DNA of 64,000 bases from a virus, in the IMG/VR virus record IMGVR_UViG_3300045988_080466, one strand, 5' to 3'. This document shows, piece by piece, positions 45,269-57,838 of this stretch (the stretch's first letter is position 1; every line of letters begins with the position of its first letter). The position numbers were made by a program, and so were the translations under genes. The notes beneath the pieces were generated by a model. That model did not search any database. It saw only the letters and a list, made by a program, of their open reading frames with translations, and was not told where the DNA came from.

Positions 45269-45365
45269 AGATGACTTTTCTACATATTTTACCTCTAAGT
45301 AGTAGAGGGTTCTACTTATCCTAACTCTAGTATTTGTTGTTATATTGCTGTAAGTCATCTTTGTT
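45269..45365 (-). ncRNA. tRNA-leader hairpin family, copy 1 (ACAGCAA motif)
   Basis: Minus sense ACAAAGATGACTT-ACAGCAAT...AAGTCATCT, 9-bp closing stem, 6 nt before the tRNA-Gln 5' end. Confidence 0.6.
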
Positions 45366-46271: not shown

Positions 46272-46297
46272 CTTGATGTAAATTTAAGTTTTACAAG

Positions 46298-46382
46298 TGG
46301 AGGGTGTCAGATTCGAACTGACGGACCCCGAAGGGCCGGCACGTTAGCAGTGTGCTGGGTTAAACCACTCCCCCAACCCTCC
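46298..46382 (-). tRNA. tRNA-Ser (GCU), class II
   Basis: Loop CTGCTAA; long variable arm GGCCC-TTCG-GGGTC. Confidence 0.85.
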
Positions 46383-46388
46383 TTACCA

Positions 46389-46628
46389 TTAACCCAATAA
46401 GTCGGTTAACTTATTAAGTGTTTGTTCGTTTTTGTTGGCTACTTCTTCAAGAGCTTGTTTCTCCGCCAAAGCAGCGTCAGCTTCTTGTTGTTTGATTGCA
46501 GCTTGTTCTCTAGCTTTAGTAATTACTCCAGACAAGCCGGAAACAGTGTTCTTAAATACTTTCAATAAGTTGTCAGCAGATGATGCTAAATCGGCAGCAG
46601 TACTAGCCTTCTTTGAAATTAATGCCAT
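46389..46628 (-). CDS. small Ala/Lys-rich coiled-coil protein (79 aa)
   Basis: ORF ending 6 nt before tRNA-Ser. Confidence 0.5.
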   Translation of the reverse strand: MALISKKASTAADLASSADNLLKVFKNTVSGLSGVITKAREQAAIKQQEADAALAEKQALEEVANKNEQTLNKLTDLLG

Positions 46629-46661
46629 AATCTTTATAAATTTAATTGTTAATATTAAGCG

Positions 46662-46743
46662 TATCCGAGGTCAGATTCGAACTGACACGAGCTTTGCTCA
46701 TTGGTTCCTAAGACCAACGCGGCTACCATTTCGCCACTCGGAC
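46662..46743 (-). tRNA. tRNA-Leu (UAG), class II
   Basis: Loop CTTAGGA; variable arm GAGC-AAA-GCTC. Confidence 0.85.
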
Positions 46744-46748
46744 AAGTA

Positions 46749-46828
46749 GCAAGGAGTCTATAGTGGGCTGCAGGACGTCTAAATCCACAGCGAACTAAAA
46801 CAATGGAAGATTTCGGGAGACTCCTTGC
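46749..46828 (-). ncRNA. tRNA-Leu 5' leader hairpin (11-bp closing stem; lacks the ACAGCAA motif)
   Basis: GCAAGGAGTCT (46749-59) pairs with AGACTCCTTGC (46818-28); 5 nt from the tRNA 5' end. Confidence 0.5.
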
Positions 46829-46835
46829 GAATATT

Positions 46836-47105
46836 TTAGTTGTGGGCTCTTAATAGCTCCCCATATTTGTAGTGATTACAATACCTATGTAAGTAGGCAA
46901 TGTAGACGTACTTATCCTTTATTAAGTCATAGTGCTTTTGTTGAAAGCGAAGAACAGAATCTCTGTCTCCATTTAAAAATTCAACATGATACTCTGCAAC
47001 TGAAGGATGCACAAAGATACTACTTTTAGTCGATTGTGCAAAGACAATCGCTATAAAAAATGTTAAAATTAAAACCAGTATTCTATTAGACTTTATAATG
47101 GTCAT
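46836..47105 (-). CDS. secreted or membrane-anchored small protein
   Basis: N-terminal ILVLILTFFIAIVFAQS signal-like segment. Confidence 0.5.
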   Translation of the reverse strand: MTIIKSNRILVLILTFFIAIVFAQSTKSSIFVHPSVAEYHVEFLNGDRDSVLRFQQKHYDLIKDKYVYIAYLHRYCNHYKYGELLRAHN

Positions 47106-47382
47106 ACAGCAATGAAATTAAATTTGGATTAATCCATTTCTGTGTGTCTATTGTTCTAAACAGATGCAGGAAATCACTCGCTACACGTTCATTGTCAAGA
47201 TACCAGTCAATTTTACTTATCTCAATTTCAAGGTCTTTAATAGACCTCTCATCGGGAAGAGACTCACAAATTTCATCAATTCTGTTATTAAGTCTCTTGG
47301 AACACATCACCAAACAGATTAATACTGTTACTGCTCTTACAAAGTAAATTGCAAGAAATAAACATATAAAAAGGTTCATCAT
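47086..47382 (-). CDS. membrane-anchored protein (98 aa)
   Basis: N-terminal TM MMNLFICLFLAIYFVRAVTVLICLV. Confidence 0.5.
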   Translation of the reverse strand: MMNLFICLFLAIYFVRAVTVLICLVMCSKRLNNRIDEICESLPDERSIKDLEIEISKIDWYLDNERVASDFLHLFRTIDTQKWINPNLISLLYDHYKV

Positions 47383-48335
47383 AAGCTCATTAGTTTTTCG
47401 TAAGCTGCTGTTAGTTCCTTAAATTTCTCTTCACTGCCACCTCTATCAGGGTGATAAACAAGAACCAATTTCCTATAAGCTGCTTTAATTATTTTCTTAT
47501 CAGTTGTTGGAGAGATTTGCAACATTGTGTAAAGAGAAGCGTAAGGATTAACTGTCTCTTGTTGGCGTTTAGCTTGTTCTCTTGAGAAATTATCCCACCA
47601 ACTCTGGTATTGGTGATTAAACCCTGCAAAATCATCATTAAACTCAAATCCTTGATTACCATAGAATCTAGCTCTCTGATATGCATTTTCTTGTTTAACC
47701 CTTTCTCTTTCTCTTCTTTCACGCTCTATCCTTTCTTCCCACTCTCTTTGTGCTCTTCTTGCTGCTTCTTGTGCCTTTCTTATGTTTTCCTCTACTTTAG
47801 CGGGAATCTCATAAAATATGTGGTCGAGAGTTTTATCAGCAATAGTCCACAAGATACTAATATGGATGGGCTTACTAATAGCATACTTCATTCCAGCATC
47901 CCAGAGATTTCCTTTCACATTAGCGTATATGGAAATATTTTGCCGATTTTCTTTCAAACCTTTCTCTATAGCTTCTATAACAGCATAGAAATAAGGCTCT
48001 TTCTTCCCTTCAAGAAGTTTCAGTATAGCTCTGAATTGAGGAATCCTTTCCCTATCAAGTTGGCTACTTAACAAATAAGCAAACCACTTAAAGTGATTGT
48101 ACTTTTTCAATTCCGAGAAATTACACTTTATAAGGGAATGTTCAGGCTCAAAGTCAGATTCCTCAACGAAATGTGCTCCGCTAAAGAAATTATAGTATTC
48201 AAACTCAAGATTGTACTTCCTACAAGCATATATAAACGCTTTATCTCTACTTGTAATAATGTCTCTTTCCTCTCCCTCATTTAGATTAGAAGAGCCATTA
48301 AAGTATTTTAAAGAAATCTTTTTAAAAACATTCAT
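47379..48335 (-). CDS. J-domain (DnaJ-like co-chaperone) protein
   Basis: C-terminal YTMLQISPTTDKKIIKAAYRKLVLVYHPDRGGSEEKFKELTAAYEKL with HPD tripeptide. Confidence 0.75.
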   Translation of the reverse strand: MNVFKKISLKYFNGSSNLNEGEERDIITSRDKAFIYACRKYNLEFEYYNFFSGAHFVEESDFEPEHSLIKCNFSELKKYNHFKWFAYLLSSQLDRERIPQFRAILKLLEGKKEPYFYAVIEAIEKGLKENRQNISIYANVKGNLWDAGMKYAISKPIHISILWTIADKTLDHIFYEIPAKVEENIRKAQEAARRAQREWEERIERERRERERVKQENAYQRARFYGNQGFEFNDDFAGFNHQYQSWWDNFSREQAKRQQETVNPYASLYTMLQISPTTDKKIIKAAYRKLVLVYHPDRGGSEEKFKELTAAYEKLMSL

Positions 48336-48361
48336 TGTCTCATCTATTTAGTTGTTAAACG

Positions 48362-48435
48362 TGGGCCTGACCGGACTTGAACCGATAACCTCAACATTAT
48401 GAGTGTTTTGCTCTGACCGATTGAGCTACAGGCCC
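48362..48435 (-). tRNA. tRNA-Met type (CAU; could be elongator Met or lysidine-Ile2)
   Basis: GGGCCTG acceptor, loop CTCATAA, T-loop TTCAAGT. Confidence 0.8.
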
Positions 48436-48438
48436 AAT

Positions 48439-48465
48439 AAAAAAGGACAGCTGTTAACTGTCCTT
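48439..48465 (-). terminator. rho-independent terminator (minus strand), 3 nt upstream of the tRNA 5' end
   Basis: AAGGACAG/CTGTCCTT 8-bp stem followed in minus sense by TTTTTTATT. Confidence 0.8.
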
Positions 48466-48470
48466 AGTTT

Positions 48471-48881
48471 TTACTCTTCAATTTCTTTATCATCGGATTC
48501 TTCATCCATAAGAATGATTCCTAAACCGACAACGTTGCCAAGTTCTTTTGGCAATGTGACTGCATCTTCTGGAAACCATTCGTTGTAAGTTTCAACAGCA
48601 ATTTTCCAATCAACGAGAACATCACGAAGTCCGCTTTTCTTAGTATGGATAGTTTCAACAAACTGTTTCGGATTGAAGTCTTTATCTACCGGAGATAAAG
48701 ATGTTGTGTTGTTGATTGATAAATCCATGAGGTTCGTTAACTCATTGATGAGTCTTTGAGCTTCTCTTTTGTAGGTGGCAATTACTTGTTCTTGTTCTGC
48801 CTTTACAATGTTAGCAATGTTAGTTGCGCGAGCGTTCAGCAATCCTTGTCCGCTGCGAGATAAGATACTTTTAAATTTCAT
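48471..48881 (-). CDS. hypothetical protein (136 aa)
   Basis: ORF. Confidence 0.55.
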   Translation of the reverse strand: MKFKSILSRSGQGLLNARATNIANIVKAEQEQVIATYKREAQRLINELTNLMDLSINNTTSLSPVDKDFNPKQFVETIHTKKSGLRDVLVDWKIAVETYNEWFPEDAVTLPKELGNVVGLGIILMDEESDDKEIEE

Positions 48882-48911
48882 TTCCTTACGTAATTTTTAT
48901 TAAGATATTTT

Positions 48912-49487
48912 TTAATCAATCAAAAGCCAGCGATAATCAACTTTATCTGCATAGATAGCGTCAAATACCAGTTGTCCAAACTGCTTACATACATATAAAG
49001 CCGTTTCTTCATCCTTACAGGATAAAATCCCTACATAGGAGCCGGAAGCGCTGACCCCAGCATAAGAATAGAAGCAACCAGGGCCAGCATCACTACTGCT
49101 ATCAGGAGCGTTGCTGCTAAGCAGATAATATGTTTCTCCTTCGCAGATGAACTTTCCGATAATATTCTTCTTTTCACTGTTGGGCAACTTACTTTCCAGA
49201 TAGAAACGAACCCAGGGATACCATATTCTTCCTTCTGTTAAGCTGAAATCATGACCCTGATTCAAAGCACGAAGCACAGTCTGTAGTTCATACATTTTAC
49301 GAATGGAACAAGGAGCGGATTCCAACCAAGAAGGATACTTCTCTCCTAACGCTTCAAAAGCATCAGCCACACTCTTTACCCTTGATTTGATGTCTTCATC
49401 AATAAAGCTAATTGTGCGAGTGCTTTTATCATATACAGGAATCTTACCTTCTGGAGCCTGTACTTCAATTACATGTTTCTTACTCAT
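48912..49487 (-). CDS. hypothetical protein (191 aa)
   Basis: Track ORF 48912..49601 trimmed to ATG 49487 (MSKKHVIEV) because its N-terminal extension overlaps a tRNA. Confidence 0.55.
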   Translation of the reverse strand: MSKKHVIEVQAPEGKIPVYDKSTRTISFIDEDIKSRVKSVADAFEALGEKYPSWLESAPCSIRKMYELQTVLRALNQGHDFSLTEGRIWYPWVRFYLESKLPNSEKKNIIGKFICEGETYYLLSSNAPDSSSDAGPGCFYSYAGVSASGSYVGILSCKDEETALYVCKQFGQLVFDAIYADKVDYRWLLID

Positions 49488-49516
49488 ACTAAAATATTTA
49501 ATAAAGTTTTTAATTG

Positions 49517-49599
49517 AGCCCTCTGTCCGATTCGAACGGACGTGTCCTTGCGGAACATCATTACAAGTGACGTGCAATCGACCACTATGCGAAGAGGGC
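49517..49599 (-). tRNA. tRNA with UGU (Thr) anticodon and a class II-type long variable arm
   Basis: GCCCTCT/AGAGGGC acceptor, 3-bp D stem, loop CTTGTAA, variable TTCC-GCAA-GGACAC (GNRA-capped), discriminator U. Confidence 0.7.
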
Positions 49600-49605
49600 A
49601 AATAC

Positions 49606-49727
49606 AGATGTGAGTTTTTAAGACGGACTCGAACCGAAATCTCCTAGCAAGCTAGGCGTAATAACCATTATACTATACTTCCTTGTTGGTGGGAGTTAAT
49701 TATTAACTTGCTGTTACACATCTTTAG
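49606..49727 (-). ncRNA. tRNA-leader hairpin family, copy 2 (loop carries tRNA-like arms)
   Basis: Stem AGATGTG/CACATCT, TAACAGCAAG motif; loop contains a D-arm-like GTATAATGGTTATTAC, CCTAG-CTTG-CTAGG hairpin and CGG-TTCGAGT-CCG. Confidence 0.55.
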
Positions 49728-49751
49728 ATATAACCTTGCCAGGTTAGGTTG

Positions 49752-49823
49752 TCGAGAGCGGGGGATTCGAACCCCAACTACCACAGTGACAGTGTGGCGT
49801 GCAGCCATTACACTACGCCCTCG
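49752..49823 (-). tRNA. tRNA-Asp (GUC)
   Basis: Loop CTGTCAC, T-arm GGGG-TTCGAAT-CCCC; acceptor/D junction slightly irregular, ends +/- 3 nt. Confidence 0.75.
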
Positions 49824-49960
49824 AAGGAGTGGATGTCAGCCGTTTCTATTCCACCATTGCGTACTACGCTGCTGACTAGCGTCTAAGACTTCTTTTCCTC
49901 ACGTCGTCTTAGAATGTACTTGATTATTATTGCCAGTTAAGGGAGGATTAAGTACAAGAG

Positions 49961-50035
49961 CACCGCCCACGGGATTCGAACCCGTATTAGCATCATCGAA
50001 AGTGATGTGTCCTAGTCCAATTAGACGAGAGCGGC
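49961..50035 (-). tRNA. tRNA-Glu (UUC)
   Basis: GCCGCTC acceptor, loop CTTTCGA, T-arm ACGGG-TTCGAAT-CCCGT. Confidence 0.85.
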
Positions 50036-50042
50036 AGAAAGC

Positions 50043-50165
50043 GGAAGACCTTTTATTACGTTGCTCTACCTGACTGAGCTAAATGAAGCAAGCTTCACTA
50101 TGAGATTTGAACTCATGACCGACGGCTTACAAGGCTGAATAGTTATTGCTGCAAGTCTTCCTTAT
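50043..50165 (-). ncRNA. tRNA-leader hairpin family, copy 3: encloses a circularly permuted tRNA-like domain (YrlA / Y-RNA-like architecture)
   Basis: Basal stem GGAAGAC/GTCTTCC, TTGCAGCAAT motif. Then, 5' to 3': T-arm ATGAG-TTCAAAT-CTCAT, acceptor-like 7-bp stem AGTGAAG-CTTG-CTTCATT closed by a tetraloop, U8-A9, canonical D-arm GCTC-AGTCAGGTA-GAGC. Confidence 0.6.
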
Positions 50166-50178
50166 TTATTAACTTAAC

Positions 50179-50493
50179 CTATTTTTCTTTTGGCTTAAAA
50201 ATGAATCTGGCAGGATAGATTTCACCAAGACCTGGCTTGTCATATTCAACTTCCCAACCATTTTTACGGTATTCATCTTCTACATTTAACCATCTGTTTT
50301 CCCAAATAGTTTGAACAGTTATGTCGTCAAGGGGGCAAAGACGAATAATTTCAGTAATAACTTCATCTTGCAATATTACAGTGCTATAAGCATCATAATT
50401 CTTTACAAGAAGATTGTTAAACGCCCCATACACAAAATCAGGAATGGATGCAAGTTTATGTTCCTTAGCATCTTTTGGTGTAAATACTTTCAT
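50179..50493 (-). CDS. hypothetical protein (104 aa)
   Basis: Track ORF trimmed from GTG 50544 to ATG 50493 (MKVFTPKD). Confidence 0.5.
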   Translation of the reverse strand: MKVFTPKDAKEHKLASIPDFVYGAFNNLLVKNYDAYSTVILQDEVITEIIRLCPLDDITVQTIWENRWLNVEDEYRKNGWEVEYDKPGLGEIYPARFIFKPKEK

Positions 50494-50521
50494 ATTATTT
50501 ATTTTTAAGTAGTAATCTCTA

Positions 50522-50725
50522 TTAATCCCAAAACCAAATTTCACGAGCCATAGCTCGTCTCATCGATATTTTACCATCAAGAATTTTAAACCATTTTTGG
50601 TGTCTGAAATGTTGAAATCTACATTTTCCTTTCTTTCCACCTAATACGTGATAAATCCACCGTCTTCCATGAGAGCGTTTACCAATGTATTTACTAGCAG
50701 TTTTCCATTTCTTTCCGTTGCTCAT
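50522..50725 (-). CDS. small highly basic protein (67 aa)
   Basis: Lys/Arg/Trp-rich ORF. Confidence 0.4.
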   Translation of the reverse strand: MSNGKKWKTASKYIGKRSHGRRWIYHVLGGKKGKCRFQHFRHQKWFKILDGKISMRRAMAREIWFWD

Positions 50726-50743
50726 ATTATTAATAAAGGTTAG

Positions 50744-50831
50744 AGGAGGCTGTAGGAGTCGAACCTACTCAACGAATGGGTACGTTACATCGGATTTCAA
50801 GTCCGTTCCATTACCGTTCTGGCAAACCTCC
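50744..50831 (-). tRNA. tRNA-Ser (UGA), class II
   Basis: Loop CTTGAAA, long variable arm with AACG/CGTT stem. Confidence 0.8.
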
Positions 50832-50860
50832 ATTTTATTCATAAAATAACATTATTTACG

Positions 50861-50944
50861 GGTGTAGTATGGGATTCGAACCCATGCGTTTCTTATGTAC
50901 CAGAACCACAATCTGGCGGCATCAACCACTAGCCGAACTACACC
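50861..50944 (-). tRNA. tRNA-His (GUG) with encoded G-1 and an unusually long (about 14 nt) variable region
   Basis: G-1:C73, stem CCAGA/TCTGG, loop TTGTGGT; variable TACATAAGAAACGC. Confidence 0.75.
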
Positions 50945-50952
50945 ATGTTTAT

Positions 50953-51303
50953 TTATCGGTAAACGAAGAAATATCTTGGAAACTCTCCTCCAAATAGAGT
51001 AAGGGCTACATTACATAACCAAATGCTTGGAACAGGGACATCAGAACAAGAAATCCATTCATAAGTTGCTCCAAATTCATCTTGTTGTGGAGTGATATGA
51101 AAATAAAGGTCGTTTCTTCCTACCTCAATTTCTGTATCAACTTTCAATGTAACAACTTCTTTATTGTCAGGATATTCGGTAACATACCATTCTAAGAAAT
51201 CATCAGCACCGTTTACCATTTGTAAATCATCAATGCTTCCAGCCCAAGGAATATCAACAAACCATCGTTGAGCTAATTTTTTAAATGTTAGTTCAAGTTT
51301 CAT
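50953..51303 (-). CDS. hypothetical protein (116 aa)
   Basis: ORF. Confidence 0.5.
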   Translation of the reverse strand: MKLELTFKKLAQRWFVDIPWAGSIDDLQMVNGADDFLEWYVTEYPDNKEVVTLKVDTEIEVGRNDLYFHITPQQDEFGATYEWISCSDVPVPSIWLCNVALTLFGGEFPRYFFVYR

Positions 51304-51320
51304 ATTATTTCTTTATTAAG

Positions 51321-51394
51321 TGGAGCCAGTGGGACTCGAACCCACGACTTTCTGCGTGCAAGGCAGACGTTCTAGCCATCTGAACTATGACCCC
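51321..51394 (-). tRNA. tRNA-Ala (UGC)
   Basis: G3:U70 pair present, loop CTTGCAC. Confidence 0.85.
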
Positions 51395-51411
51395 AAGTTA
51401 TAGTTGAGGGG

Positions 51412-51485
51412 AGGGGAGTGTCGGGTTCGAACCGACAACCTATGGGTTAACAGCCCATTGCTCTGCCAATTATAGCTAACTCCCC
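51412..51485 (-). tRNA. tRNA-Asn (GUU)
   Basis: GGGGAGT acceptor, loop CTGTTAA. Confidence 0.85.
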
Positions 51486-51491
51486 GAATAC

Positions 51492-51562
51492 GGATTACTA
51501 TTTAAATGTGTCGCTATTTTCTGGTGCAATAATTTAAGGTAATTGCTGTAAGTAATCCTTGT
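51492..51562 (-). ncRNA. tRNA-leader hairpin family, copy 4
   Basis: ACAAGGATTACT-TACAGCAATTA...AGTAATCC, 6 nt before tRNA-Asn. Confidence 0.6.
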
Positions 51563-51901
51563 AATATATTTTAATATGTAAAAACAGTAGTCATTTATAA
51601 TCCCTATGTGTAGGAACTTACTCCCCCATTGGAAGTGTTCCCGTTGGTAACCAAGTATAGCTGTGTGAAGCTTGCTCGAAATACCATACAAAAGCTCTTT
51701 TTAATAATTTCATAACTTTCATACTTTTAAGGGTTAAATGAATAAATAAATAATCTAAAAACTCTGGTCAACCACACGCATCCCACCAGTTTGTACTTCC
51801 CGCTCCTCTTAGTACAAGTGACTCTGTTGTTCCTACAGATTATCTCCTAAGTATCCAAGCGAGTTATCACCTGCCAAAGCCTTGTCCGTTGTGAGTTTTT
51901 G

Positions 51902-51975
51902 TGCGCCCGTTGTGATTCGAACACAAGACCCACGGATTAAAAATCCGTTGCTCTAACCAACTGAGCTACGAGCGC
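51902..51975 (-). tRNA. tRNA-Lys (UUU)
   Basis: GCGCTCG acceptor, loop TTTTTAA. Confidence 0.85.
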
Positions 51976-51997
51976 AATCCTAAATTGCCTTTCGGGC

Positions 51998-52067
51998 AGA
52001 ACACTATAATAAGCTGTGTCAAATTAAAAGTTTGATGCTGAATATAATTGCTGTAAGTGTTCTTTAT
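51998..52067 (-). ncRNA. tRNA-leader hairpin family, copy 5
   Basis: ATAAAGAACACT-TACAGCAATTA...AGTGTTCT; 22 nt (with a GCC/GGC mini-hairpin) before tRNA-Lys. Confidence 0.6.
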
Positions 52068-52085
52068 TATTAACTAAAATGGAAG

Positions 52086-52167
52086 AGCCCAGAGTCGGAT
52101 TCAAACCGACGACAGATTTCTCAAACGGTTTTGCAGACCGCCCCCTTAATCACTCGGGCATCTGGGC
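52086..52167 (-). tRNA. tRNA with GCA (Cys) anticodon, U73, and a long variable region
   Basis: GCCCAGA/TCTGGGC acceptor, 3-bp D stem CCC/GGG, loop CTGCAAA, variable TTGA-GAAA-TCTGTC. Confidence 0.7.
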
Positions 52168-52173
52168 ATAAAC

Positions 52174-52236
52174 AGAAGTCTTTTTGTTGACAATATAACC
52201 AATTGTTGTATTAAATTTGCTGTGAGACTTCTTTGT
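52174..52236 (-). ncRNA. tRNA-leader hairpin family, copy 6
   Basis: ACAAAGAAGTCT-CACAGCAAAT...AGACTTCT, 6 nt before tRNA-Cys. Confidence 0.6.
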
Positions 52237-52430
52237 ATTTTTGGTATTCTGAAATATTCTACTAAAGAGAACCACTTTCGATAGTCTTCTCACGTACCAA
52301 TCGAGTTAATTCCCTGTCACACTTACGTGCCTTGTGCAGTTTTTTACCTGCTGCCCAGTACACTTATTTCTTGTTGAATAAGTATGAAAAAGTCACCCGA
52401 ATTTATCGTCACATTCGGTAAACGGTGAGG

Positions 52431-52504
52431 TCGGACGGGTAGGACTTGAACCTACGACCCTTACCTTATCAGAGTAATGCTCTAACCAACTGAGCTACCG
52501 TCCG
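52431..52504 (-). tRNA. tRNA-Ile (GAU)
   Basis: Loop CTGATAA, canonical D and T arms; C1:G72. Confidence 0.8.
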
Positions 52505-52719
52505 GATTACGAGACTTGCCTATATGCGTCCATATAAGTAGTATCTCAACCTATCTTCTACTTCGGTCGTTGATAGGACTGATTTCCTCCCACCTTTGCG
52601 CATCCATATCCGAATTTGGAGAGGCGTAGGAAGGATATTTGGTATTCCACGATAAGAGGTCGTTACTCTCTCACCACCGCTTGTTTAAGGCGGCTATGCA
52701 ACTCTACACTATATCGTCT

Positions 52720-53103
52720 TTATAATTTATAAATTAAAGTTTTATATTTGTCTTTCATTATTTTGAATCCCAATGGAAGTAAAGCATATTCATATACCTT
52801 TCTTCTCCTCTCATCGTCAGGATAAACCTCAATAGAGTCTCCTGGGAATTTCCATTTAGCATAATCAATAAAGTCAAGTAAACATTTTTTAGCCCACAAT
52901 AAAGACTTTATTCCGTCTTTACCAGTTGTTTTACCTTCTTGATAACCATGCTTCCTTTTAGTGGTTACATAAAAGGCAAAGTTTAAGGTCTCATTGTAAG
53001 TTCTATATACTTCACAGACAATTATTTGATTACACTCATTACGCGATTTATAAATGTAATGGTCAAGGTATTCTTTACCTGATTCTCTTTGTACATCATA
53101 CAT
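52720..53103 (-). CDS. hypothetical protein (127 aa)
   Basis: Trimmed to ATG 53103. Confidence 0.5.
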   Translation of the reverse strand: MYDVQRESGKEYLDHYIYKSRNECNQIIVCEVYRTYNETLNFAFYVTTKRKHGYQEGKTTGKDGIKSLLWAKKCLLDFIDYAKWKFPGDSIEVYPDDERRRKVYEYALLPLGFKIMKDKYKTLIYKL

Positions 53104-53410
53104 AATCCTCACATTCTTCTCTAATTAACTTTTTAGCTTCATATCGTTTTTTACGATTTTCTTTCTTTACGTCATACTGATGCATTTTACTTCTGCCGAC
53201 AACTGTACTATGTTTAAGTTTCTTAGCAAACTTGGAATCATTAAGAAAATCTGTAATAGATTCACAATTTCTATAAGTTGCTATTGTGTTTGGATAACTA
53301 TGTTTAATTCCTCTTATCGGGACATCAAAAGTTCCCCATGAATTGTAAATCTTTCTTGCTCTCGAAATCCATTTATTTCTTGTGCGTTCACGTCTAAGTT
53401 CTCTATTCAC
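53096..53410 (-). CDS. hypothetical basic protein (104 aa), GTG start
   Basis: ORF; Arg/Lys-rich. Confidence 0.45.
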   Translation of the reverse strand: MNRELRRERTRNKWISRARKIYNSWGTFDVPIRGIKHSYPNTIATYRNCESITDFLNDSKFAKKLKHSTVVGRSKMHQYDVKKENRKKRYEAKKLIREECEDYV

Positions 53411-53514
53411 AACTATCTTTTATTAATGATGTTACTTATATCCATTCATTTGTTATTTTTAGTAGAATTGGTTGGTTATCCAGTCACACCACGTGGAGGT
53501 TTCTACTATGTGAC

Positions 53515-53587
53515 CTGCGGAGCTGGGAATCGAACCCAGAACCCGAGGATATGAGCCTCGTGAGATACCATTTCTACGCACTCCGCA
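53515..53587 (-). tRNA. tRNA-Met type (CAU), second copy (initiator/elongator/Ile2 unresolved)
   Basis: Stem CGAGG/CCTCG, loop CTCATAT, T-arm CTGGG-TTCGATT-CCCAG; D arm irregular. Confidence 0.7.
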
Positions 53588-53590
53588 ATA

Positions 53591-53761
53591 TCATTTGTTT
53601 ATTCCTTGCATTAATATATCTCCAGTAATATCACCTGCTACATTTAGAAGATACTCTGCAAAATTATTTTCAGCTGATGGTTGGGTATTTTTATCTATCC
53701 TTTTTGCTATTTTAAGCAATTCATCTAACTTTTTAATAATTAAATCGAGTTTGTCTTCCAT
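53591..53761 (-). CDS. small hypothetical protein (56 aa)
   Basis: Below cutoff; MEDKLDLIIKKLDELLKIAKRIDKNTQPSAENNFAEYLLNVAGDITGDILMQGINK; the plus-strand track ORF here is its antisense. Confidence 0.4.
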   Translation of the reverse strand: MEDKLDLIIKKLDELLKIAKRIDKNTQPSAENNFAEYLLNVAGDITGDILMQGINK

Positions 53762-53776
53762 AGTAGTAATTATATG

Positions 53777-53852
53777 TGCGGATAGAGAGACTCGAACTCT
53801 CCCCTTCTGATTGGAAGTCAGACATGCTCAAAACCATTGACACCACACCCGC
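53777..53852 (-). tRNA. tRNA-Gly (UCC)
   Basis: Loop CTTCCAA, T-arm GAGAG-TTCGAGT-CTCTC; long D loop. Confidence 0.8.
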
Positions 53853-53857
53853 AGATT

Positions 53858-53879
53858 AAAAAGGCTTAATTAGCCTTTT
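53858..53879 (-). terminator. A/U-flanked hairpin, probable terminator (overlaps the MazG-like stop)
   Basis: AAAAGGCT-TAATT-AGCCTTTT. Confidence 0.45.
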
Positions 53880-54180: not shown

Positions 54181-54203
54181 AATTTATTTCCTTAATTGTG
54201 AGT

Positions 54204-54235
54204 ACAAAGATACTACATATTTTTAATGTTACAAA
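54204..54235 (-). promoter_or_regulatory. Bacteroidota-type promoter
   Basis: Minus-sense TTTG (54232-35), N20, TATCTTTG (54204-11). Confidence 0.75.
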
Positions 54236-54429: not shown

Positions 54430-54488
54430 AGATGTCCTTTTTGTATATTCAGTAAATAATATTAAATATTGCTGCAAGACATCTTTAA
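54430..54488 (-). ncRNA. tRNA-leader hairpin family, copy 7
   Basis: TTAAAGATGTC-TTGCAGCAATA...GACATCT, 6 nt before tRNA-Trp. Confidence 0.6.
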
Positions 54489-54601: not shown

Positions 54602-54664
54602 AGATGTGCATTTACGATGTTAATATTTGGTAAACATTATAAGTTTGCTGTTGCACATCTTTGT
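54602..54664 (-). ncRNA. tRNA-leader hairpin family, copy 8
   Basis: ACAAAGATGTGCA-ACAGCAAAC...TGCACATCT, 7 nt before tRNA-Tyr. Confidence 0.6.
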
Positions 54665-55978: not shown

Positions 55979-56077
55979 GGATTAGGTTCGTGCCTCTTCT
56001 TACCTTCCGGTACCTTCGAGAGCTTTCGTCCTTATTTATATAGTATAAGTTGTGTACTTGCTGTACCTAATCCTTGT
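55979..56077 (-). ncRNA. tRNA-leader hairpin family, copy 9
   Basis: ACAAGGATTAGGT-ACAGCAAGT...ACCTAATCC; 87 nt (with an extra 10-bp hairpin) upstream of tRNA-Phe, directly downstream of the TROVE/vWA gene. Confidence 0.55.
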
Positions 56078-56116: not shown

Positions 56117-57838
56117 TTAGAGAGTAAGCATATTCAGTAATTCTTGATTCATTGCTGCTTGGAACAATTCCAGAGCATTTTTCGGAATACTTTCAACAGG
56201 TGTTTTACCAGTAAGGAAGGCAATTCCAGCTGGGTCAAGACCACTCATATAGAAAGTATATGCGTCGTCACAGAGTGATTCAAACTTCGGACGAGGACTT
56301 GAGGAATAATATCCGTTAGGAATATCCCATAGAACCATAACGAAGTTATCAACGAACTCTTTAGAGAATCTCGTTCTCAATAGTTGACGGAACGCAGTAA
56401 ATACTGACTGATTACGTCCAACAGAGTTGAACTCACCATCAGAAATACAGATGATACCACTTGGGAAATCTTCTTCTGCATATCCCTTATCTCTAAGAGA
56501 TACAAGAAGTTGTGCAACTGACATTAAATTGGTTCCACAATAACCGCCACCATGAAACTTAGTGAATTTTTCATAAGGAGTATCTCCCCTCCACTCTTTC
56601 ATTAGGCATGTATTTGAGAACTCAAGTACAGTATTTGCAAATTTCCCTTCCAGTAAGTATGACAGATACAGAGCAATGGATTTTGCTACATGATATGCAC
56701 TTACTTCAAGTCCGGCAGCCTTGGAAGTCATAGAACCAGATGTGTCAAGAACAGCGATAAGATTAGTCTTGCGATTCATATCTTGTTTAGCTGTTTCGAT
56801 AAGAGACATAAACTGCTTATTAACAGTGTCTATCTGGTAAGGTTTCAGAGCTGTTTTTCTTCCATTATAACAATCGTTATCAGGGAACAGTTCATACACA
56901 AATCCAGTGAACTTAGCCACTGGTTTCGCTGTAAGCCATTCCTCATAAGCCTGTGTCAAGTTGTGGTTTTCTAAGAACTTACCTTTAGCAAGTAATGCAA
57001 GTGCTCTACCAGCAATCGAATCGAAATCAAGATTTTTGTAGTCTTGACGGCTAATTGCCTGCTGCCATTTGTGGGCATTGCCTGATGCTTTAATTTCACG
57101 ATACATTTTATATGCACGCCACTTACCTCCTTCACCTTCTCCCAAGTCGAATATTTCTTTAACGATTTTCTTTGCAATAAAGTTATTGCATTGAGAACGC
57201 AAAGAAGTACACTTCTTGCTTGGCTTTATCTGTGGAAGATACTTTCTCACCAAGTTAGTTTGGCTATCATCAGCCAATCCACCGACAATAAACCTGATGA
57301 TGTATTTCCAATCAAGAACTTTATTGACTGCACCATGATATTCAAGGTCAAGCCTTAGAATTTCAAAGACATCATCCCACGAACCTGCTGTAACAAACAC
57401 AGGTAAGTTCTTTTTGAAGATTTTTGGGTGATTGATGGCAAGCCAAATCATTCTCATGAAGAACTCGGATTTAAGTCCTTGTCCTCTTTGAACACCCAAT
57501 TTCTTGCCAGTAAACAGTTTCGGATTACGAGTAATCAAACGAATGTACACTGCTTCTTTAATAGCTGTCAATGGGTCTACTGCCCAAAGCCTTTCCATAG
57601 TCTGGGAAACCTCAGCAAACTCTCTGGGTTTTCTGTAATTACCAATGGCTGCGAAGTCATCGATAAATACATTACCTGACGTATCATACTTCAAACTTCC
57701 GTTACCGGATAAAGTTTGATGTTCCATCTTATATGCTTCTCTCTGGAAGATATTTTCAAACTTGGGAGCTTGTACTCCCGAACCTTTAGTAACTTTAGGA
57801 GTTACTTCATAAAGCGATGTTCTTTTTCTGTCAAACAT
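56117..57838 (-). CDS. Ro60-like TROVE + von Willebrand A domain protein (DUF2828-type)
   Basis: N-terminal TLSGNGSLKYDTSGNVFIDDFAAIGNYR then helical repeats; C-terminal vWA with MIDAS VLDTSGSMTS and ICISDGEFN; same order as Ro60/Rsr. Confidence 0.6.
   Translation of the reverse strand: MFDRKRTSLYEVTPKVTKGSGVQAPKFENIFQREAYKMEHQTLSGNGSLKYDTSGNVFIDDFAAIGNYRKPREFAEVSQTMERLWAVDPLTAIKEAVYIRLITRNPKLFTGKKLGVQRGQGLKSEFFMRMIWLAINHPKIFKKNLPVFVTAGSWDDVFEILRLDLEYHGAVNKVLDWKYIIRFIVGGLADDSQTNLVRKYLPQIKPSKKCTSLRSQCNNFIAKKIVKEIFDLGEGEGGKWRAYKMYREIKASGNAHKWQQAISRQDYKNLDFDSIAGRALALLAKGKFLENHNLTQAYEEWLTAKPVAKFTGFVYELFPDNDCYNGRKTALKPYQIDTVNKQFMSLIETAKQDMNRKTNLIAVLDTSGSMTSKAAGLEVSAYHVAKSIALYLSYLLEGKFANTVLEFSNTCLMKEWRGDTPYEKFTKFHGGGYCGTNLMSVAQLLVSLRDKGYAEEDFPSGIICISDGEFNSVGRNQSVFTAFRQLLRTRFSKEFVDNFVMVLWDIPNGYYSSSPRPKFESLCDDAYTFYMSGLDPAGIAFLTGKTPVESIPKNALELFQAAMNQELLNMLTL

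What the first reader, a model, noticed from the sequence alone, without database searches (positions are those of the whole stretch)
50043..50165. Circularly permuted tRNA-like domain inside a stem-closed element: a YrlA / Y-RNA-like tRNA mimic
Read 5' to 3' on the minus strand: basal stem GGAAGAC, the family motif TTGCAGCAAT, then variable-loop-like CGGTC. Next come a canonical T-arm ATGAG-TTCAAAT-CTCAT and a 7-bp acceptor-like stem AGTGAAG/CTTCATT closed by a CTTG tetraloop, so there is no free CCA end. These are followed by U8-A9, a canonical D-arm GCTC-AGTCAGGTA-GAGC with G18G19, A26, a 3-bp remnant where the anticodon stem would be, and finally the basal stem 3' strand GTCTTCC. All elbow-forming nucleotides (U8, A14, GG in the D loop, TTC in the T loop) are present, but the gene order is T-arm, acceptor, D-arm. 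That is the architecture reported for bacterial YrlA Y RNAs, which bind Ro60/Rsr: a tRNA-like module with a capped acceptor stem, attached where the anticodon stem would be to a stem formed by the RNA ends. A Ro60-like gene lies 6 kb away in the same island.
Basis: partly seen in the sequence, partly recalled or inferred. Interest (0 to 1): 0.8.

Follow-up and report, generated by a model that had tools for sequence, protein, structure and literature searches.

The report
Phage Y-RNA-like permuted tRNA-Thr mimic
This is a complete threonine tRNA written in scrambled order (back half first, front half second), sealed at the end where an amino acid would attach and clamped by a short stem that recurs throughout this phage's tRNA cluster next to a gene for a Ro60-shaped RNA-binding protein, so it most likely extends the Ro/Y-RNA partnership known from animals and bacteria to many tRNA-rich phages.

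Summary
On the minus strand, 50163..50041 holds a T arm, a 7-bp acceptor stem capped by CUUG, and a D arm, all enclosed by a 7-bp terminal stem.

The leader carries GC-CUUGUAA-GCCGU, which with A27-C28-G29 rebuilds a perfect anticodon arm. The element is therefore a complete tRNA-Thr(UGU), circularly permuted at 29|30.

Thirty divergent relatives keep 98.6% of pairs, with compensatory changes in 19 of 28.

The terminal stem plus CUUGCAGCAAU is a cassette. It is present at least 9 times in this island and in hundreds of viral contigs.

The 573-aa gene 6 kb upstream (Pfam DUF2828) has a Ro60 fold. Of 80 loci chosen by that protein alone, 79 carry cassettes on its strand.

The same tRNA-like core sits beside true TROVE Ro60 genes in bacteria, but with a different end motif. 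The motif tracks the protein family (64:1 versus 0:32).

Best reading: a YrlA-type tRNA mimic serving a divergent phage Ro-like protein. It is not a formal YrlA member: 34.6 bits against a threshold of 69, no GNCGAA motif, and an anticodon loop that YrlA lacks.

The main rival is a split tRNA gene that needs splicing. I rate it a new variant of a known kind.

The parts
50041..50163 (-). Whole element: the cassette-enclosed, circularly permuted tRNA-Thr(UGU)-like RNA
   Evidence: Own covariance model R1 scores 108.3 bits, E 2e-23, and this is the only hit in the window; the model includes this sequence. The sequence was read.
50155..50161 (-). Terminal (basal) stem, 5' strand GGAAGAC, preceded by AA
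   Evidence: It pairs with 50043-50049. All 7 pairs show compensatory changes among homologues. Base-pair probability is about 1.0.
50145..50154 (-). Cassette motif UUGCAGCAAU (family consensus C-UUACAGCAAU; it begins with the YUAY seen in YrlA)
   Evidence: There are 15 matches with at most 1 mismatch in the window against 5.4 expected. C13, G15 and C16 are invariant in alignment A3. Sibling cassettes align to the 11-nt motif of Rfam RF01414.
50136..50144 (-). Leader spacer AACUAUUCA, variable among homologues
50122..50135 (-). Lower anticodon stem G30-C31, loop C32-U33-U34-G35-U36-A37-A38 (anticodon UGU at 50131-50129), and 3' strand G39-U43
   Evidence: Un-permuting the sequence gives a tRNA-Thr(UGU) cloverleaf. 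Pair 31-39 covaries (CG:25, AU:3, GC:2).
50117..50121 (-). Variable loop CGGUC; C48 can form the Levitt pair with G15
   Evidence: Read directly from the sequence.
50100..50116 (-). T arm AUGAG-UUCAAAU-CUCAU
   Evidence: Four of its 5 pairs show compensatory changes.
50082..50099 (-). Acceptor-stem hairpin AGUGAAG-CUUG-CUUCAUU (7 bp, CUUG tetraloop at 50092-50089), with no free 3' end
   Evidence: All 7 pairs are compensatory among homologues. Homologues are capped by CUUG, UACG, UUCG or GAAA.
50063..50081 (-). U8-A9 and the D arm GCUC-AGUCAGGUA-GAGC (A14, G15, G18, G19)
   Evidence: It shares the YrlA consensus GUAGCUCA..GGUAGAGC.
50059..50062 (-). A26 and A27-C28-G29, the upper anticodon-stem 5' strand; the permutation break lies after G29
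   Evidence: It pairs with C41-G42-U43 (50124-50122). ARAGORN finds a unique best junction there.
50050..50058 (-). Trailer UAAUAAAAG; UA follows ACG in all 30 aligned homologues (which were retrieved with patterns ending ...ACGTA)
   Evidence: The YrlA consensus also reads ..ggcg-uA.
50043..50049 (-). Terminal stem, 3' strand GUCUUCC, followed by GC and, 7 nt on, tRNA-Glu (50035-49960)
56117..57838 (-). 573-aa Ro60-fold protein (Pfam DUF2828 + DUF7788; HEAT-like repeats plus vWA), the presumed protein partner
   Evidence: Pfam. AF2 model pLDDT 84, pTM 0.83. Foldseek top hits are Ro60/Rsr. Linkage to cassettes is shown.
55979..56074 (-). Sibling cassette (AGGAUUAG-GUACAGCAAG ... CUAAUCC-GU)
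54602..54661 (-). Sibling cassette, 7 nt upstream of tRNA-Tyr
54430..54485 (-). Sibling cassette, 6 nt upstream of tRNA-Trp; Rfam Dicty_Class_I 30.7 bits
52174..52233 (-). Sibling cassette, 6 nt upstream of tRNA-Cys; Rfam Dicty_Class_I 27.2 bits
51998..52064 (-). Sibling cassette upstream of tRNA-Lys; Rfam Dicty_Class_I 27.7 bits
51492..51559 (-). Sibling cassette, 6 nt upstream of tRNA-Asn
49606..49724 (-). Sibling cassette enclosing a degenerate, non-permuted tRNA-like core
   Evidence: (Rfam tRNA 28.1 bits, partial).
45269..45361 (-). Sibling cassette, 6 nt upstream of tRNA-Gln; Rfam Dicty_Class_I 26.8 bits

Best explanation
The element encodes a Y-RNA-like tRNA mimic of the YrlA type, and it is built from a whole tRNA.

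Shown:
- It is a complete tRNA-Thr(UGU) sequence, circularly permuted at position 29|30 of the anticodon stem.
- Its acceptor end is sealed by a CUUG tetraloop.
- Its two ends are closed by a 7-bp stem followed by the motif CUUGCAGCAAU.
- That stem-plus-motif 'cassette' recurs at least 9 times in this tRNA island. Most copies end 6-7 nt before a tRNA gene.
- The cassette is genomically coupled, over wide phage diversity, to a Ro60-fold protein of the DUF2828 family.

Inferred:
- The cassette is the docking site for that Ro-like protein.
- The RNA is cut out of the tRNA-cluster transcript. RNase P cleavage of the downstream tRNA-Glu would set its 3' end.
- It folds into an L-shape with the cassette helix branching from the anticodon stem.
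- The tRNA-Thr-shaped module then presents elbow, anticodon loop and closed acceptor to a tRNA-recognising partner. Candidates are a modification enzyme, ThrRS, RNase P, an exonuclease, or a host tRNA-targeting nuclease. This would tether the partner to the Ro-like protein or act as a decoy, as YrlA is proposed to do for bacterial Rsr.
- The tRNA-less sibling cassettes would be the simpler Y RNAs of the same protein, analogous to YrlB.
For: 1. Fold: the Rfam YrlA local match covers T arm, acceptor stem and D arm. The structure is conserved in 30 divergent homologues: 98.6% of cells paired, 19 of 28 pairs compensatory, covariation score 0.712 against 0.178 for shuffles. RNAalifold agrees.

2. 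Partner protein: the AF2 model (pLDDT 84) best matches Ro60/Rsr structures over its full length.

3. Linkage in both directions: loci found through the RNA contain DUF2828 homologues down to 22-30% identity. Of 80 loci found through the protein alone, 79 carry cassettes, with 591 on its strand against 59 on the opposite strand. All 147 model-R1 hits in those loci lie on the protein's strand.

4. Cultured phages show the same layout. In coliphage VpaE1 the DUF2828 gene gp045 is followed by the tRNA array, which holds 4 cassettes, one of them a permuted tRNA-like element (R1 42.9 bits). In Leptolyngbya phage Lbo-JY46 five tandem cassettes directly follow the gene.

5. The same tRNA-like core with the ...ACG|UA junction lies next to genuine TROVE Ro60 genes in bacteria. 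In Chryseobacterium it sits in a WYL/RlaP/TROVE RNA-repair locus.

6. The end motif tracks the protein family: DUF2828 loci have 64 CAGCAA against 1 UACUUCG, and TROVE loci have 0 against 32.

7. Against a plain tRNA role: the acceptor caps are stable tetraloops (CUUG, UACG, UUCG, GAAA) and only 1 of 30 carries an encoded CCA. An ordinary tRNA with the same anticodon coexists in 19 of 41 cases, including this window. Sibling permuted elements have non-decoding loops, or a Ser anticodon on a class-I body.
Against: - No binding, expression or RNA-end data exist. The protein-RNA pairing is inferred from linkage and from motif/protein covariation, which is partly confounded by phylogeny and by the collection searched.
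- The element fails the Rfam YrlA threshold and lacks the GNCGAA Ro-binding motif.
- The single-sequence MFE prefers another fold by 7.7 kcal/mol.
- The anticodon loop is perfectly canonical and conserved. C2-G71, a ThrRS identity pair in E. coli (from my own knowledge), is present in most Thr-type homologues by my reading. Non-permuted relatives have free acceptor ends, and L122 carries an encoded ACCA. Some loci show no ordinary tRNA-Thr within the sequence held. All of these are equally or better explained if the RNA is a tRNA precursor.
- Sequence-level homology between DUF2828 and TROVE is weak (hhalign probability 56%, E 1e-4, mainly the vWA part).
Confidence: 0.6

Rival explanations
1. 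It is a disrupted (circularly permuted) tRNA gene that yields a working tRNA. The leader and trailer would be removed at G29|U and A|G30 and the ends ligated, giving a circular intermediate. RNase P and 3' trimming would then open the acceptor stem, CCA would be added, and a functional tRNA-Thr(UGU) would result, as for the permuted tRNA genes of Cyanidioschyzon. The cassette would be an intron-like processing handle, possibly held by the Ro-like protein.
For: - The un-permuted sequence is a flawless tRNA-Thr(UGU), and it folds to the cloverleaf as its MFE.
- The same junction occurs as a 39-79-nt insertion in ordinary-order tRNA genes with free ends. L122 has an encoded ACCA.
- Anticodon loops across the family are canonical and diverse: Thr, Asn, Pro, Arg, Lys, Asp, Gly and others.
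- Pairs 30-40 and 31-39 are kept, and 31-39 covaries.
- Some loci hold a permuted Thr but no ordinary tRNA-Thr in the sequence available.
- The phage encodes a Pnkp-like end-healing enzyme.
- M. smegmatis YrlA shows that bacteria can open a capped 7-bp acceptor stem with RNase P and add CCA.
Against: - I see no bulge-helix-bulge motif, and the splice-site flanks are variable (my inspection).
- The Pfam sweep of 117 ORFs listed no splicing endonuclease, RtcB or dedicated RNA ligase. Only the top 25 of 36 families were shown, and the ligase found is DNA-ligase-like.
- An ordinary tRNA-Thr(UGU) is already present in this window and in many relatives.
- The acceptor is capped by stable tetraloops with no conserved discriminator, and here G-1 can pair with C73.
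- Bacterial counterparts sit inside Ro60/RNA-repair operons rather than among housekeeping tRNAs.
- Several sibling elements could not decode at all.
Confidence: 0.2
2. It is a bona fide member of the described YrlA family (Rfam RF02553), merely too divergent for the model.
For: - Local YrlA match.
- Shared GUAGCUCA..GGUAGAGC..CGUA core and a YUAY after the stem.
- YrlA RNAs were reported in 22 phages.
Against: - It scores 34.6 bits against 69, and model positions 1-22 and 88-114 do not match.
- There is no GNCGAAN0-1G motif.
- The neighbouring protein is not TROVE by Pfam or NCBIfam and lies 5.96 kb away.
- The element has an anticodon loop, which S. Typhimurium YrlA lacks.
- The end motif is systematically different in DUF2828 loci.
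Confidence: 0.1
3. The cassette is a small selfish or mobile insertion that landed in a spare tRNA gene, or the element is a by-product of tandem-tRNA recombination. Under this reading the RNA has no function of its own (a rearranged pseudogene).
For: - The cassette is multi-copy.
- It occurs both as an insertion and as a permuted closure at the same tRNA position.
- Disrupted copies are often redundant with intact tRNAs.
- Permutation is most simply produced by tandem duplication of an interrupted gene.
Against: - Pseudogenes decay, but here 98.6% of pairs are kept through near-saturating sequence change, with compensatory substitutions in every variable helix.
- Cassette stems differ between copies yet stay complementary, unlike the terminal repeats of a mobile element.
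- Strand and position relative to the Ro-like gene and to tRNAs are conserved.
Confidence: 0.04
4. It is a false positive from two adjacent tRNA genes: the T arm of one and the D arm of the next. This is the known artefact of YrlA searches.
For: Chen et al. warn that dimeric tRNAs score as YrlA. The element lies in a dense tRNA array.
Against: - The two 'acceptor' strands are complementary over 7 bp and separated by only 4 nt.
- There is no 5' half upstream and no 3' half downstream.
- ARAGORN and the Rfam tRNA model find no tRNA there.
- True dimer artefacts in related loci match only model positions 28-105 of R1.
Confidence: 0.01

Closest known systems
YrlA (Y RNA-like A; Rfam RF02553), the tRNA-like Y RNAs bound by bacterial and mycobacteriophage Ro60/Rsr (Chen et al. 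2014, PMC4201824; Wang et al. 2018, doi 10.1101/312249)
   Same: - The order is 5' stem strand, (V hairpin), T arm, capped acceptor stem, D arm, 3' stem strand.
- The D arm GUAGCUCA..GGUAGAGC is nearly identical, and 'CG-UA' follows it.
- A YUAY follows the 5' stem strand.
- All elbow-forming nucleotides are present.
- It is encoded on the same strand as, and a few kb from, a Ro60-fold gene.
- Simpler sibling RNAs exist, like YrlB.
   Different: - There is no GNCGAAN0-1G motif and no two-tier Ro-binding stem. Instead there is a single 7-bp stem plus CUUACAGCAAU.
- The partner is DUF2828/DUF7788, not Pfam TROVE.
- The 'V' hairpin plus the 3-bp stem forms a canonical anticodon arm (UGU), whereas S. 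Typhimurium YrlA is described as lacking the anticodon loop.
- It scores below half the Rfam gathering score.
- The module is multi-copy and embedded in a phage tRNA array.
Circularly permuted tRNA genes of Cyanidioschyzon merolae, some green algae and Thermofilum (Soma et al.; PMC3978253, PMC3218864)
   Same: - The 3' half is encoded upstream of the 5' half.
- The acceptor ends are joined by a short linker.
- Joining the outer ends restores a perfect cloverleaf.
- Insertion-type and permuted versions share the same junction. This fits an origin by tandem duplication of an interrupted gene.
   Different: - The junction lies in the anticodon stem (29|30), with no bulge-helix-bulge motif.
- The host is bacterial (a tmRNA-carrying phage), and no splicing endonuclease was found.
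- The linker is a stable tetraloop.
- The ends are closed by a conserved protein-linked cassette.
- An intact tRNA with the same anticodon coexists.
- No evidence of maturation exists.
Dictyostelium Class I RNAs (Rfam RF01414; Kjellin et al. 2021, PMC7919456)
   Same: This applies to the cassette only.
- A short covarying stem joins the 5' and 3' ends.
- An 11-nt motif, (C)CUUACAGCAA(U), lies directly after the 5' strand.
- The interior is variable.
- The cassettes start with AAG and most siblings end with CUGU.
- Sibling cassettes match the full-length model at 27-31 bits, and a cassette in Leptolyngbya phage Lbo-JY46 reaches 39.3 bits (gathering score 41.5).
   Different: - All matches fall below the gathering score.
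- The setting is a phage, not a dictyostelid.
- There is no DUSE promoter.
- The focal copy ends CCGC, not CUGU, and carries a 95-nt tRNA module.
- Class I RNAs are reported to bind an RRM protein, and no link to DUF2828 is known.
- Homology versus convergence is untested.
Metazoan and Deinococcus Y RNAs with Ro60/Rsr
   Same: A small RNA whose paired ends plus an adjacent conserved single-stranded motif dock a Ro60-fold ring protein, while an internal module engages a second factor.
   Different: The conserved bulged helix GGUCCGA/UUGACU is absent, the internal module is a full tRNA, and the protein is highly diverged.

Membership tests
YrlA (Rfam RF02553) | Scores at or above the Rfam gathering score (69 bits) over the whole model | tested here: not met
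   It scores 34.6 bits, and only model positions 23-87 of 114 match.
YrlA (Rfam RF02553) | tRNA-like domain in the order T arm, closed acceptor stem, D arm, with the tRNA tertiary-pair nucleotides | tested here: met
   The cmscan alignment shows the order. U8, A14, G15-C48, G18, G19, U54-A58 and C56 are read from the sequence. Covariation supports the helices.
YrlA (Rfam RF02553) | GNCGAAN0-1G motif near the 5' end (the proposed Rsr contact) | tested here: not met
   The leader AAGGAAGACUUGCAGCAAUAACUAUUCA contains no GNCGAA.
YrlA (Rfam RF02553) | Encoded within about 4 kb of a TROVE-domain Ro60 orthologue, on the same strand | tested here: not met
   The strand is the same, but the distance is 5.96 kb. 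The protein hits DUF2828/DUF7788, not TROVE. A Ro60 fold is supported by Foldseek only.
YrlA (Rfam RF02553) | Bound by Rsr/Ro60 in vivo and modified by TruB/DusA | not testable with these tools
   This needs immunoprecipitation and modification mapping.
Circularly permuted tRNA genes | The 3' half lies upstream of the 5' half, and joining the outer ends restores a canonical cloverleaf with a 7-nt anticodon loop | tested here: met
   ARAGORN on the rearranged sequence calls tRNA-Thr(UGU), with a unique best junction G29|G30 at 116% stringency.
Circularly permuted tRNA genes | Bulge-helix-bulge motif at the leader/trailer junction, recognised by a tRNA-splicing endonuclease | tested here: not met
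   By inspection of 22 Thr-type homologues and 35 insertion-type relatives, I found no 3-nt bulge / 4-bp helix / 3-nt bulge. The leader end is variable. No endonuclease family appeared in the Pfam sweep.
Circularly permuted tRNA genes | A mature, aminoacylatable tRNA is produced through a circular intermediate | not testable with these tools
   This needs junction RT-PCR or RNA-seq and acid-gel Northern blots.
Dictyostelium Class I RNA (Rfam RF01414), cassette only | Scores at or above the gathering score (41.5 bits) | tested here: not met
   The focal copy gives no match up to E = 10 in the 401-nt search. Four siblings score 26.8-30.7 bits, and the best relative scores 39.3 bits.
Dictyostelium Class I RNA (Rfam RF01414), cassette only | A 6-7-bp covarying stem joining the ends, with the 11-nt motif CCUUACAGCAA next to the 5' strand | tested here: met
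   The sequence reads GGAAGAC/GUCUUCC followed by CUUGCAGCAAU. The stems differ between copies but stay complementary.
Dictyostelium Class I RNA (Rfam RF01414), cassette only | AAG start, CUGU end, DUSE promoter about 60 nt upstream, dictyostelid genome | tested here: inconclusive
   The AAG start is present. The end is CCGC here and CUGU or CCGU in most siblings. The DUSE promoter was not searched, and the genome is a phage.
Ro60/TROVE proteins (the neighbouring ORF) | HEAT-repeat ring plus C-terminal vWA/MIDAS domain | tested here: met
   In the AF2 model, helical repeats span about residues 30-350 and an alpha/beta domain spans 360-545, with DxSGS at 365-369. The top 6 Foldseek hits are Ro60/Rsr.
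Ro60/TROVE proteins (the neighbouring ORF) | Sequence-level membership (Pfam TROVE PF05731) | tested here: not met
   There is no TROVE hit and no NCBIfam hit. hhalign against a TROVE protein gives probability 56%, E 1e-4.

The most novel reading that the evidence does not exclude
DUF2828 proteins are a previously unrecognised, phage-borne branch of the Ro60 family. Their cognate Y RNAs are the 'stem + CUUACAGCAAU' cassettes. The tRNA-bearing cassettes are complete, anticodon-carrying permuted tRNAs that act as decoys or sensors for host tRNA-targeting defences, or as tethers for tRNA enzymes. The same RNA module is the evolutionary relative of the Dictyostelium Class I RNAs, which were thought to be unique to social amoebae.
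Probability: 0.2. Interest if true: 0.9.

Novelty: new variant of a known kind. Interest (0 to 1): 0.8.

Why it matters
- It would give a function (RNA partner and genomic context) to DUF2828, an uncharacterised family. DUF2828 is present in hundreds of isolated phages, including Felix O1-like coliphages and Listeria, Enterococcus, Bacillus and jumbo phages.
- It would extend Ro60/Y-RNA biology to phage tRNA arrays.
- It shows that YrlA-type mimics can be whole permuted tRNAs that keep a canonical anticodon arm. The Ro-docking helix is inserted at 29|30 rather than replacing the anticodon arm. This changes the list of candidate effectors to include anticodon-reading proteins such as aaRSs, t6A enzymes and anticodon nucleases.
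- The end motif switches with the protein family. That offers a natural specificity code for Ro-RNA recognition.
- The system exists in a cultivable E. coli phage (VpaE1), so it is directly testable.
- The unexpected match of the cassette to Dictyostelium Class I RNAs opens a testable question about the origin of those RNAs.

Tried and rejected
- A DNA search of INPHARED with 3.5 kb around the element found only tRNA-sized matches and no close isolate.
- ARAGORN and Rfam at gathering thresholds see nothing at the element.
- Single-sequence folding gives a different MFE with z = -1.45, so thermodynamics alone does not support the tRNA fold. Covariation does.
- A sigma-70 promoter at the cassette starts was rejected. 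No consensus promoter abuts any cassette, and fewer promoter-like sites are found than in shuffles.
- The hairpin at 48443-48465 first looked like a minimal cassette, but it is a terminator-like hairpin.
- The candidate at 9147 lies inside a coding region and was dropped.
- A bulge-helix-bulge intron was rejected by inspection.
- A Pfam sweep of 117 ORFs looked for a splicing endonuclease, RtcB or an RNA ligase. It found only Pnkp and a DNA-ligase-like enzyme.
- The idea that the Thr element is the phage's only tRNA-Thr was rejected for this window, because a class-II-like tRNA-Thr(UGU) lies at 49516-49599. For some relatives the test is inconclusive because only part of each contig is held.
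- Un-permuting the Leu-like elements (L036, L093) gave no unique canonical anticodon arm.
- PDB sequence search, NCBIfam and the literature gave nothing for the DUF2828 protein.
- Literature searches found no report of permuted tRNAs in phages.
Full report
**Setting**

The window is phage-like. All large ORFs are on the minus strand. A tRNA island runs from 43.5 to 61.8 kb. It holds 22 ARAGORN tRNAs, one further tRNA found only by Rfam, and a tmRNA. No close isolate exists at the DNA level.

**1. The observation**

- tRNA detectors do not call it.
- The Rfam YrlA model matches 50057-50124(-) locally. The match covers model positions 23-87 of 114, scores 34.6 bits against a gathering score of 69, and has E 5.6e-6 in 401 nt and 2.7e-4 in 19.5 kb.
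- It is the only canonical T arm in the island outside an annotated tRNA.
- Single-sequence folding does not settle the matter. The MFE of -29.4 kcal/mol (z = -1.45) keeps the terminal stem, T hairpin and D hairpin but re-pairs the acceptor cap with the leader. The tRNA-like fold scores -21.7 kcal/mol.

**2.

The leader holds GC-CUUGUAA-GCCGU at 50135-50122. The 5' half ends A26-A27-C28-G29. Joining G29 to G30 gives ACGGC/GCCGU around the loop C-U-UGU-A-A. The result is a flawless tRNA-Thr(UGU) cloverleaf.

I scanned the trimmings of leader and trailer with ARAGORN at rising stringency. The scan leaves exactly that junction. The rearranged sequence folds to the cloverleaf as its MFE.

In the transcript as encoded, all five anticodon-stem pairs can still form. 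The leader/trailer helix then branches from the stem between nucleotides 29 and 30. The element is therefore a complete, circularly permuted tRNA, not an anticodon-less mimic.

**3. Conservation**

Pattern scans of IMG/VR found about 22 distinct Thr-type homologues. A search with the D-arm/junction signature found at least 119 distinct loci. Only 3 of these were ordinary tRNAs.

Of the other 119 sequences classified:
- 66 are permuted.
- 36 carry the same kind of element as an insertion at the same position in an ordinary-order tRNA (35 of them 39-79 nt long).
- 16 are unclear and 1 is ambiguous.

One example is L122, an unpermuted tRNA-Thr(UGU) with an encoded ACCA and a 44-nt insertion at 29|30.

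On a MAFFT alignment of 30 distinct permuted elements, the full structure is paired in 98.6% of cells. Shuffled partners give 71.8% and slid partners give 36-43%. Nineteen of 28 pairs show compensatory changes, including all 7 pairs of the terminal stem, all 7 of the acceptor, and 4 of 5 in the T stem. The covariation score is 0.712 against 0.178 for shuffles.

The invariant D stem and upper anticodon stem were fixed by the search pattern and carry no weight. RNAalifold independently predicts the terminal stem, the 2-bp lower anticodon hairpin, the T arm, the acceptor and the D arm.

This refutes random decay of a pseudogene. It also refutes the tandem-tRNA artefact that Chen et al. warn about.

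**4. The terminal stem plus motif is a repeated cassette**

The window holds at least 9 minus-strand copies of the form AARGA-nnnn, nnACAGCAAn, a variable interior of 31-95 nt, nnnn-UCY-G. Seven of the nine end 6-7 nt before a tRNA 5' end. The stems differ between copies yet stay complementary.

Four copies match the full-length Rfam model of Dictyostelium Class I RNAs at 26.8-30.7 bits, against a gathering score of 41.5. The published hallmarks of Class I RNAs are an AAG start, a short covarying end-joining stem, the 11-nt motif CCUUACAGCAA next to the 5' strand, and a CUGU end. All are present in most cassettes. Whether this reflects homology or convergence is open.

**5. The neighbouring protein**

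ORF 56117-57838(-) encodes 573 aa on the same strand, 5.96 kb upstream. It hits Pfam DUF2828 and DUF7788, not TROVE.

An AlphaFold2 model built on 44 homologues has pLDDT 84 and pTM 0.83. Its six best PDB matches are Xenopus and human Ro60 and Deinococcus Rsr, over the full length (E 5e-8 to 4e-6, TM 0.37-0.53). Isolated vWA domains follow.

Profile comparison with a bacterial TROVE protein is weak: probability 56%, E 1e-4. The description 'Ro60-like' therefore holds at the level of fold.

**6. Linkage of RNA and protein**

- Loci retrieved through the RNA contain DUF2828 homologues down to 22-30% identity.
- In the reverse direction, 80 viral loci were retrieved through the protein alone, at 40-99% identity. 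Of these, 79 carry at least one cassette and 73 carry at least three on the protein's strand. The totals are 591 cassettes on that strand against 59 on the other.
- A covariance model of the permuted element (R1) finds the window copy at 108.3 bits. It also finds 147 matches in those loci, all on the protein's strand and up to 8 per locus.
- Isolated phages show the same layout. DUF2828 homologues occur in 277 INPHARED records.
- In coliphage vB_EcoM-VpaE1 (Felixounavirus), the gene annotated 'RNA-binding protein' gp045 is followed 165 nt downstream by the 20-tRNA array. That array contains four cassettes, one enclosing a permuted tRNA-like core (R1 42.9 bits, E 6e-7).
- In Leptolyngbya phage Lbo-JY46, five tandem cassettes follow the gene. 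One reaches 39.3 bits on the Class I model.

**7. Connection to genuine Ro60 systems**

The same signature, GUAGCUCA..GGUAGAGCAACG|UA, occurs in bacterial genomes.

In Chryseobacterium kwangjuense, an ordinary-order tRNA-Lys(UUU)-like gene carries a 57-nt insertion at 29|30. It lies about 100 nt upstream of a TROVE-domain ORF, in a locus that also holds RlaP and a WYL regulator.

Prevotellaceae and Bacillus contigs hold permuted versions. They match YrlA locally at 30-38 bits, like the phage element.

The Rfam YrlA consensus itself reads ..GUAGCUCAauuuGGUAGAGCggcguA.. and has CUA after its inner stem. Chen et al. note a conserved YUAY there.

The bacterial elements end in ...UUACUUCG rather than ...UUACAGCAA. 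Across all loci held, the end motif tracks the protein family. DUF2828 loci show 64 CAGCAA against 1 UACUUCG. TROVE loci show 0 CAGCAA-only against 32. This is the pattern expected if the end module is the protein-recognition site. It is partly confounded by phylogeny and by the collection searched.

**8. Mechanism**

Shown: the fold, its conservation, the cassette family, the Ro60 fold of the neighbouring protein, and the genomic coupling.

Inferred:
- The cassette docks the Ro-like protein.
- The RNA is released from the tRNA-cluster transcript. Its 3' end lies 7 nt before tRNA-Glu, so RNase P cleavage of that tRNA would define it.
- The tRNA-Thr-shaped module engages a tRNA-recognising partner, as proposed for YrlA and Rsr.

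Four observations favour a mimic over a decoding tRNA:
1. The acceptor caps are stable tetraloops (CUUG, UACG, UUCG, GAAA). There is no conserved discriminator, and only 1 of 30 has an encoded CCA.
2. An ordinary tRNA with the same anticodon coexists in 19 of 41 cases. In this window it is a class-II-like tRNA-Thr(UGU) at 49516-49599 with G1-C72 and C2-G71.
3. Sibling permuted elements have non-decoding loops (UUAUGGU, 12 matches; loops of 12-21 nt) or a Ser anticodon on a class-I body.
4. The bacterial counterparts sit in Ro60 repair operons.

**9. The main rival**

The main rival is a true split tRNA gene, matured by excision, ligation, RNase P opening and CCA addition.

For it:
- The anticodon loops are canonical and diverse across the family.
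- Insertion-type relatives have free acceptor ends.
- By my reading, most Thr-type homologues keep C2-G71. I know this pair as a ThrRS identity element in E. coli from my own knowledge.
- A Pnkp-like enzyme is encoded at 2878-3792.
- M. smegmatis YrlA shows that a capped 7-bp acceptor stem can be opened and CCA-tailed in vivo.
- Some relatives show no ordinary tRNA-Thr in the partial sequence held.

Against it: I see no bulge-helix-bulge motif and no splicing endonuclease, RtcB or dedicated RNA ligase, and the four points in section 8 also apply.

My probabilities are about 0.6 for the Y-RNA-like mimic and about 0.2 for the tRNA precursor. The two are not mutually exclusive, because the Ro-like protein could be a maturation platform.

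**10. Comparison with known families, and novelty**

The element works like YrlA but is not a member by the family's own criteria:
- It falls below the Rfam gathering score.
- It lacks the GNCGAAN0-1G motif.
- No Pfam TROVE protein lies within 4 kb.
- It has an anticodon loop, which S. Typhimurium YrlA is said to lack.

It has the gene anatomy of the permuted tRNA genes of Cyanidioschyzon and Thermofilum, but not their BHB junction or their known processing machinery. Its closing module resembles Dictyostelium Class I RNAs.

Searches of the held literature found no report of permuted tRNAs in phages and no functional study of DUF2828.

Verdict: a real, conserved feature and a new variant of a known kind. 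It is a YrlA-type tRNA-mimic Y RNA, built from a complete permuted tRNA-Thr. It uses a different end module and is paired with a divergent, phage-borne Ro60-like protein.

Noticed in passing
window 60751-61328 (-): The tmRNA gene is 578 nt against a 374-position model, with an insertion of about 186 nt after the tag-reading-frame region (Rfam 81.2 bits). ARAGORN did not report it.
   Followed up: no
window 61626-61688 (-): A sub-threshold but full-length match to the type-P1 twister ribozyme (47.4 bits, gathering score 67.2, E 6.5e-8 in 19.5 kb). It lies between the tmRNA and tRNA-Arg(ACG).
   Followed up: no
window 49516-49599, 54340-54423, 50860-50943, 52085-52167 (-): Several tRNAs of the island are 83-84 nt long, with a long variable arm where I inspected the sequence (Thr UGU, Trp CCA, Cys GCA). 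Their anticodons are Thr UGU, Trp CCA, His GUG and Cys GCA, which in bacteria normally sit on class-I bodies.
   Followed up: partly
window 49606-49724 (-): The cassette next to the focal one encloses a degenerate, non-permuted tRNA-like core (Rfam tRNA 28.1 bits, model 7-64). A 4-5-nt-loop hairpin stands in place of the anticodon arm, and it covaries in relatives (CCUAG/CUAGG versus CCUAAC/GUUAGG). Upstream lies 'CUCCCACCA', which looks like an acceptor 3' end plus CCA. I could not resolve its architecture.
   Followed up: partly
window 53777-53852 (-); whole window: One tRNA is found only by Rfam (49.8 bits) and missed by ARAGORN. No tRNA-Gly or tRNA-Val is present in the 64 kb, although nearly every other amino acid is covered.
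   Followed up: no
window 45269-56074 (-), eight further cassettes: Stem-closed 56-119-nt elements (AAG, 7-bp stem, CUUACAGCAAU ... stem, CUGU). Six of the eight end 6-7 nt before a tRNA. They match the Dictyostelium Class I RNA model at 27-31 bits, a class reported as unique to dictyostelids.
   Followed up: partly
L331 (Escherichia phage vB_EcoM-VpaE1, NC_027337) 16725-17503; also 16967-17040, 17733-17806, 21217-21306: A cultured Felix O1-like coliphage carries four cassettes, one of them a permuted tRNA-like element at 17375-17503. They lie after its DUF2828 'RNA-binding protein' gene. The Rfam tRNA model also hits three places with no tRNA feature in the record's table.
   Followed up: partly
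L357 (Chryseobacterium kwangjuense) 6364-6494 and 6599-7975; L360 (Prevotellaceae MAG); L341 (Bacillus sp. BP-3): Bacterial genomes hold ordinary-order and permuted tRNA-like genes interrupted at 29|30 by a different element (...UUACUUCG). In Chryseobacterium kwangjuense the gene lies directly upstream of a TROVE Ro60 ORF, beside RlaP and WYL genes. They carry canonical anticodon loops for Lys, Asp, Met and others, so anticodon-bearing Y RNAs may be common beyond phages.
   Followed up: partly
L280, L283, L300, L252 and similar (IMG/VR relatives): Related phages carry up to 8 permuted tRNA-like cassettes per 20 kb, with junctions at 26|27, 28|29 or 29|30. One conserved type has the odd loop UUAUGGU (anticodon position AUG). 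Another has an encoded A-CCA after the acceptor 3' strand (L058 5622..5466).
   Followed up: partly
window 2878-3792 (-) and 7351-8541 (-): A Pnkp-like kinase/phosphatase (AAA_33 + HAD_PNKP) and an ATP-dependent DNA-ligase-like enzyme are encoded about 45 kb from the element. No RtcB or Rnl-type RNA ligase was seen in the window.
   Followed up: partly
phage records MK773491 (Salmonella phage 7t3) and KU574722 (Pectobacterium phage CBB): The DUF2828 homologue is annotated as 'structural protein' in two jumbo phages. This hints that the Ro-like protein may be packaged in virions.
   Followed up: no
window 48443-48465: A perfect hairpin, AAGGACAG-UUAACAG-CUGUCCUU followed by a U run, is terminator-like. 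Its loop imitates the cassette motif (UUAACAGC), and it sits 8 nt upstream of tRNA-Met.
   Followed up: partly
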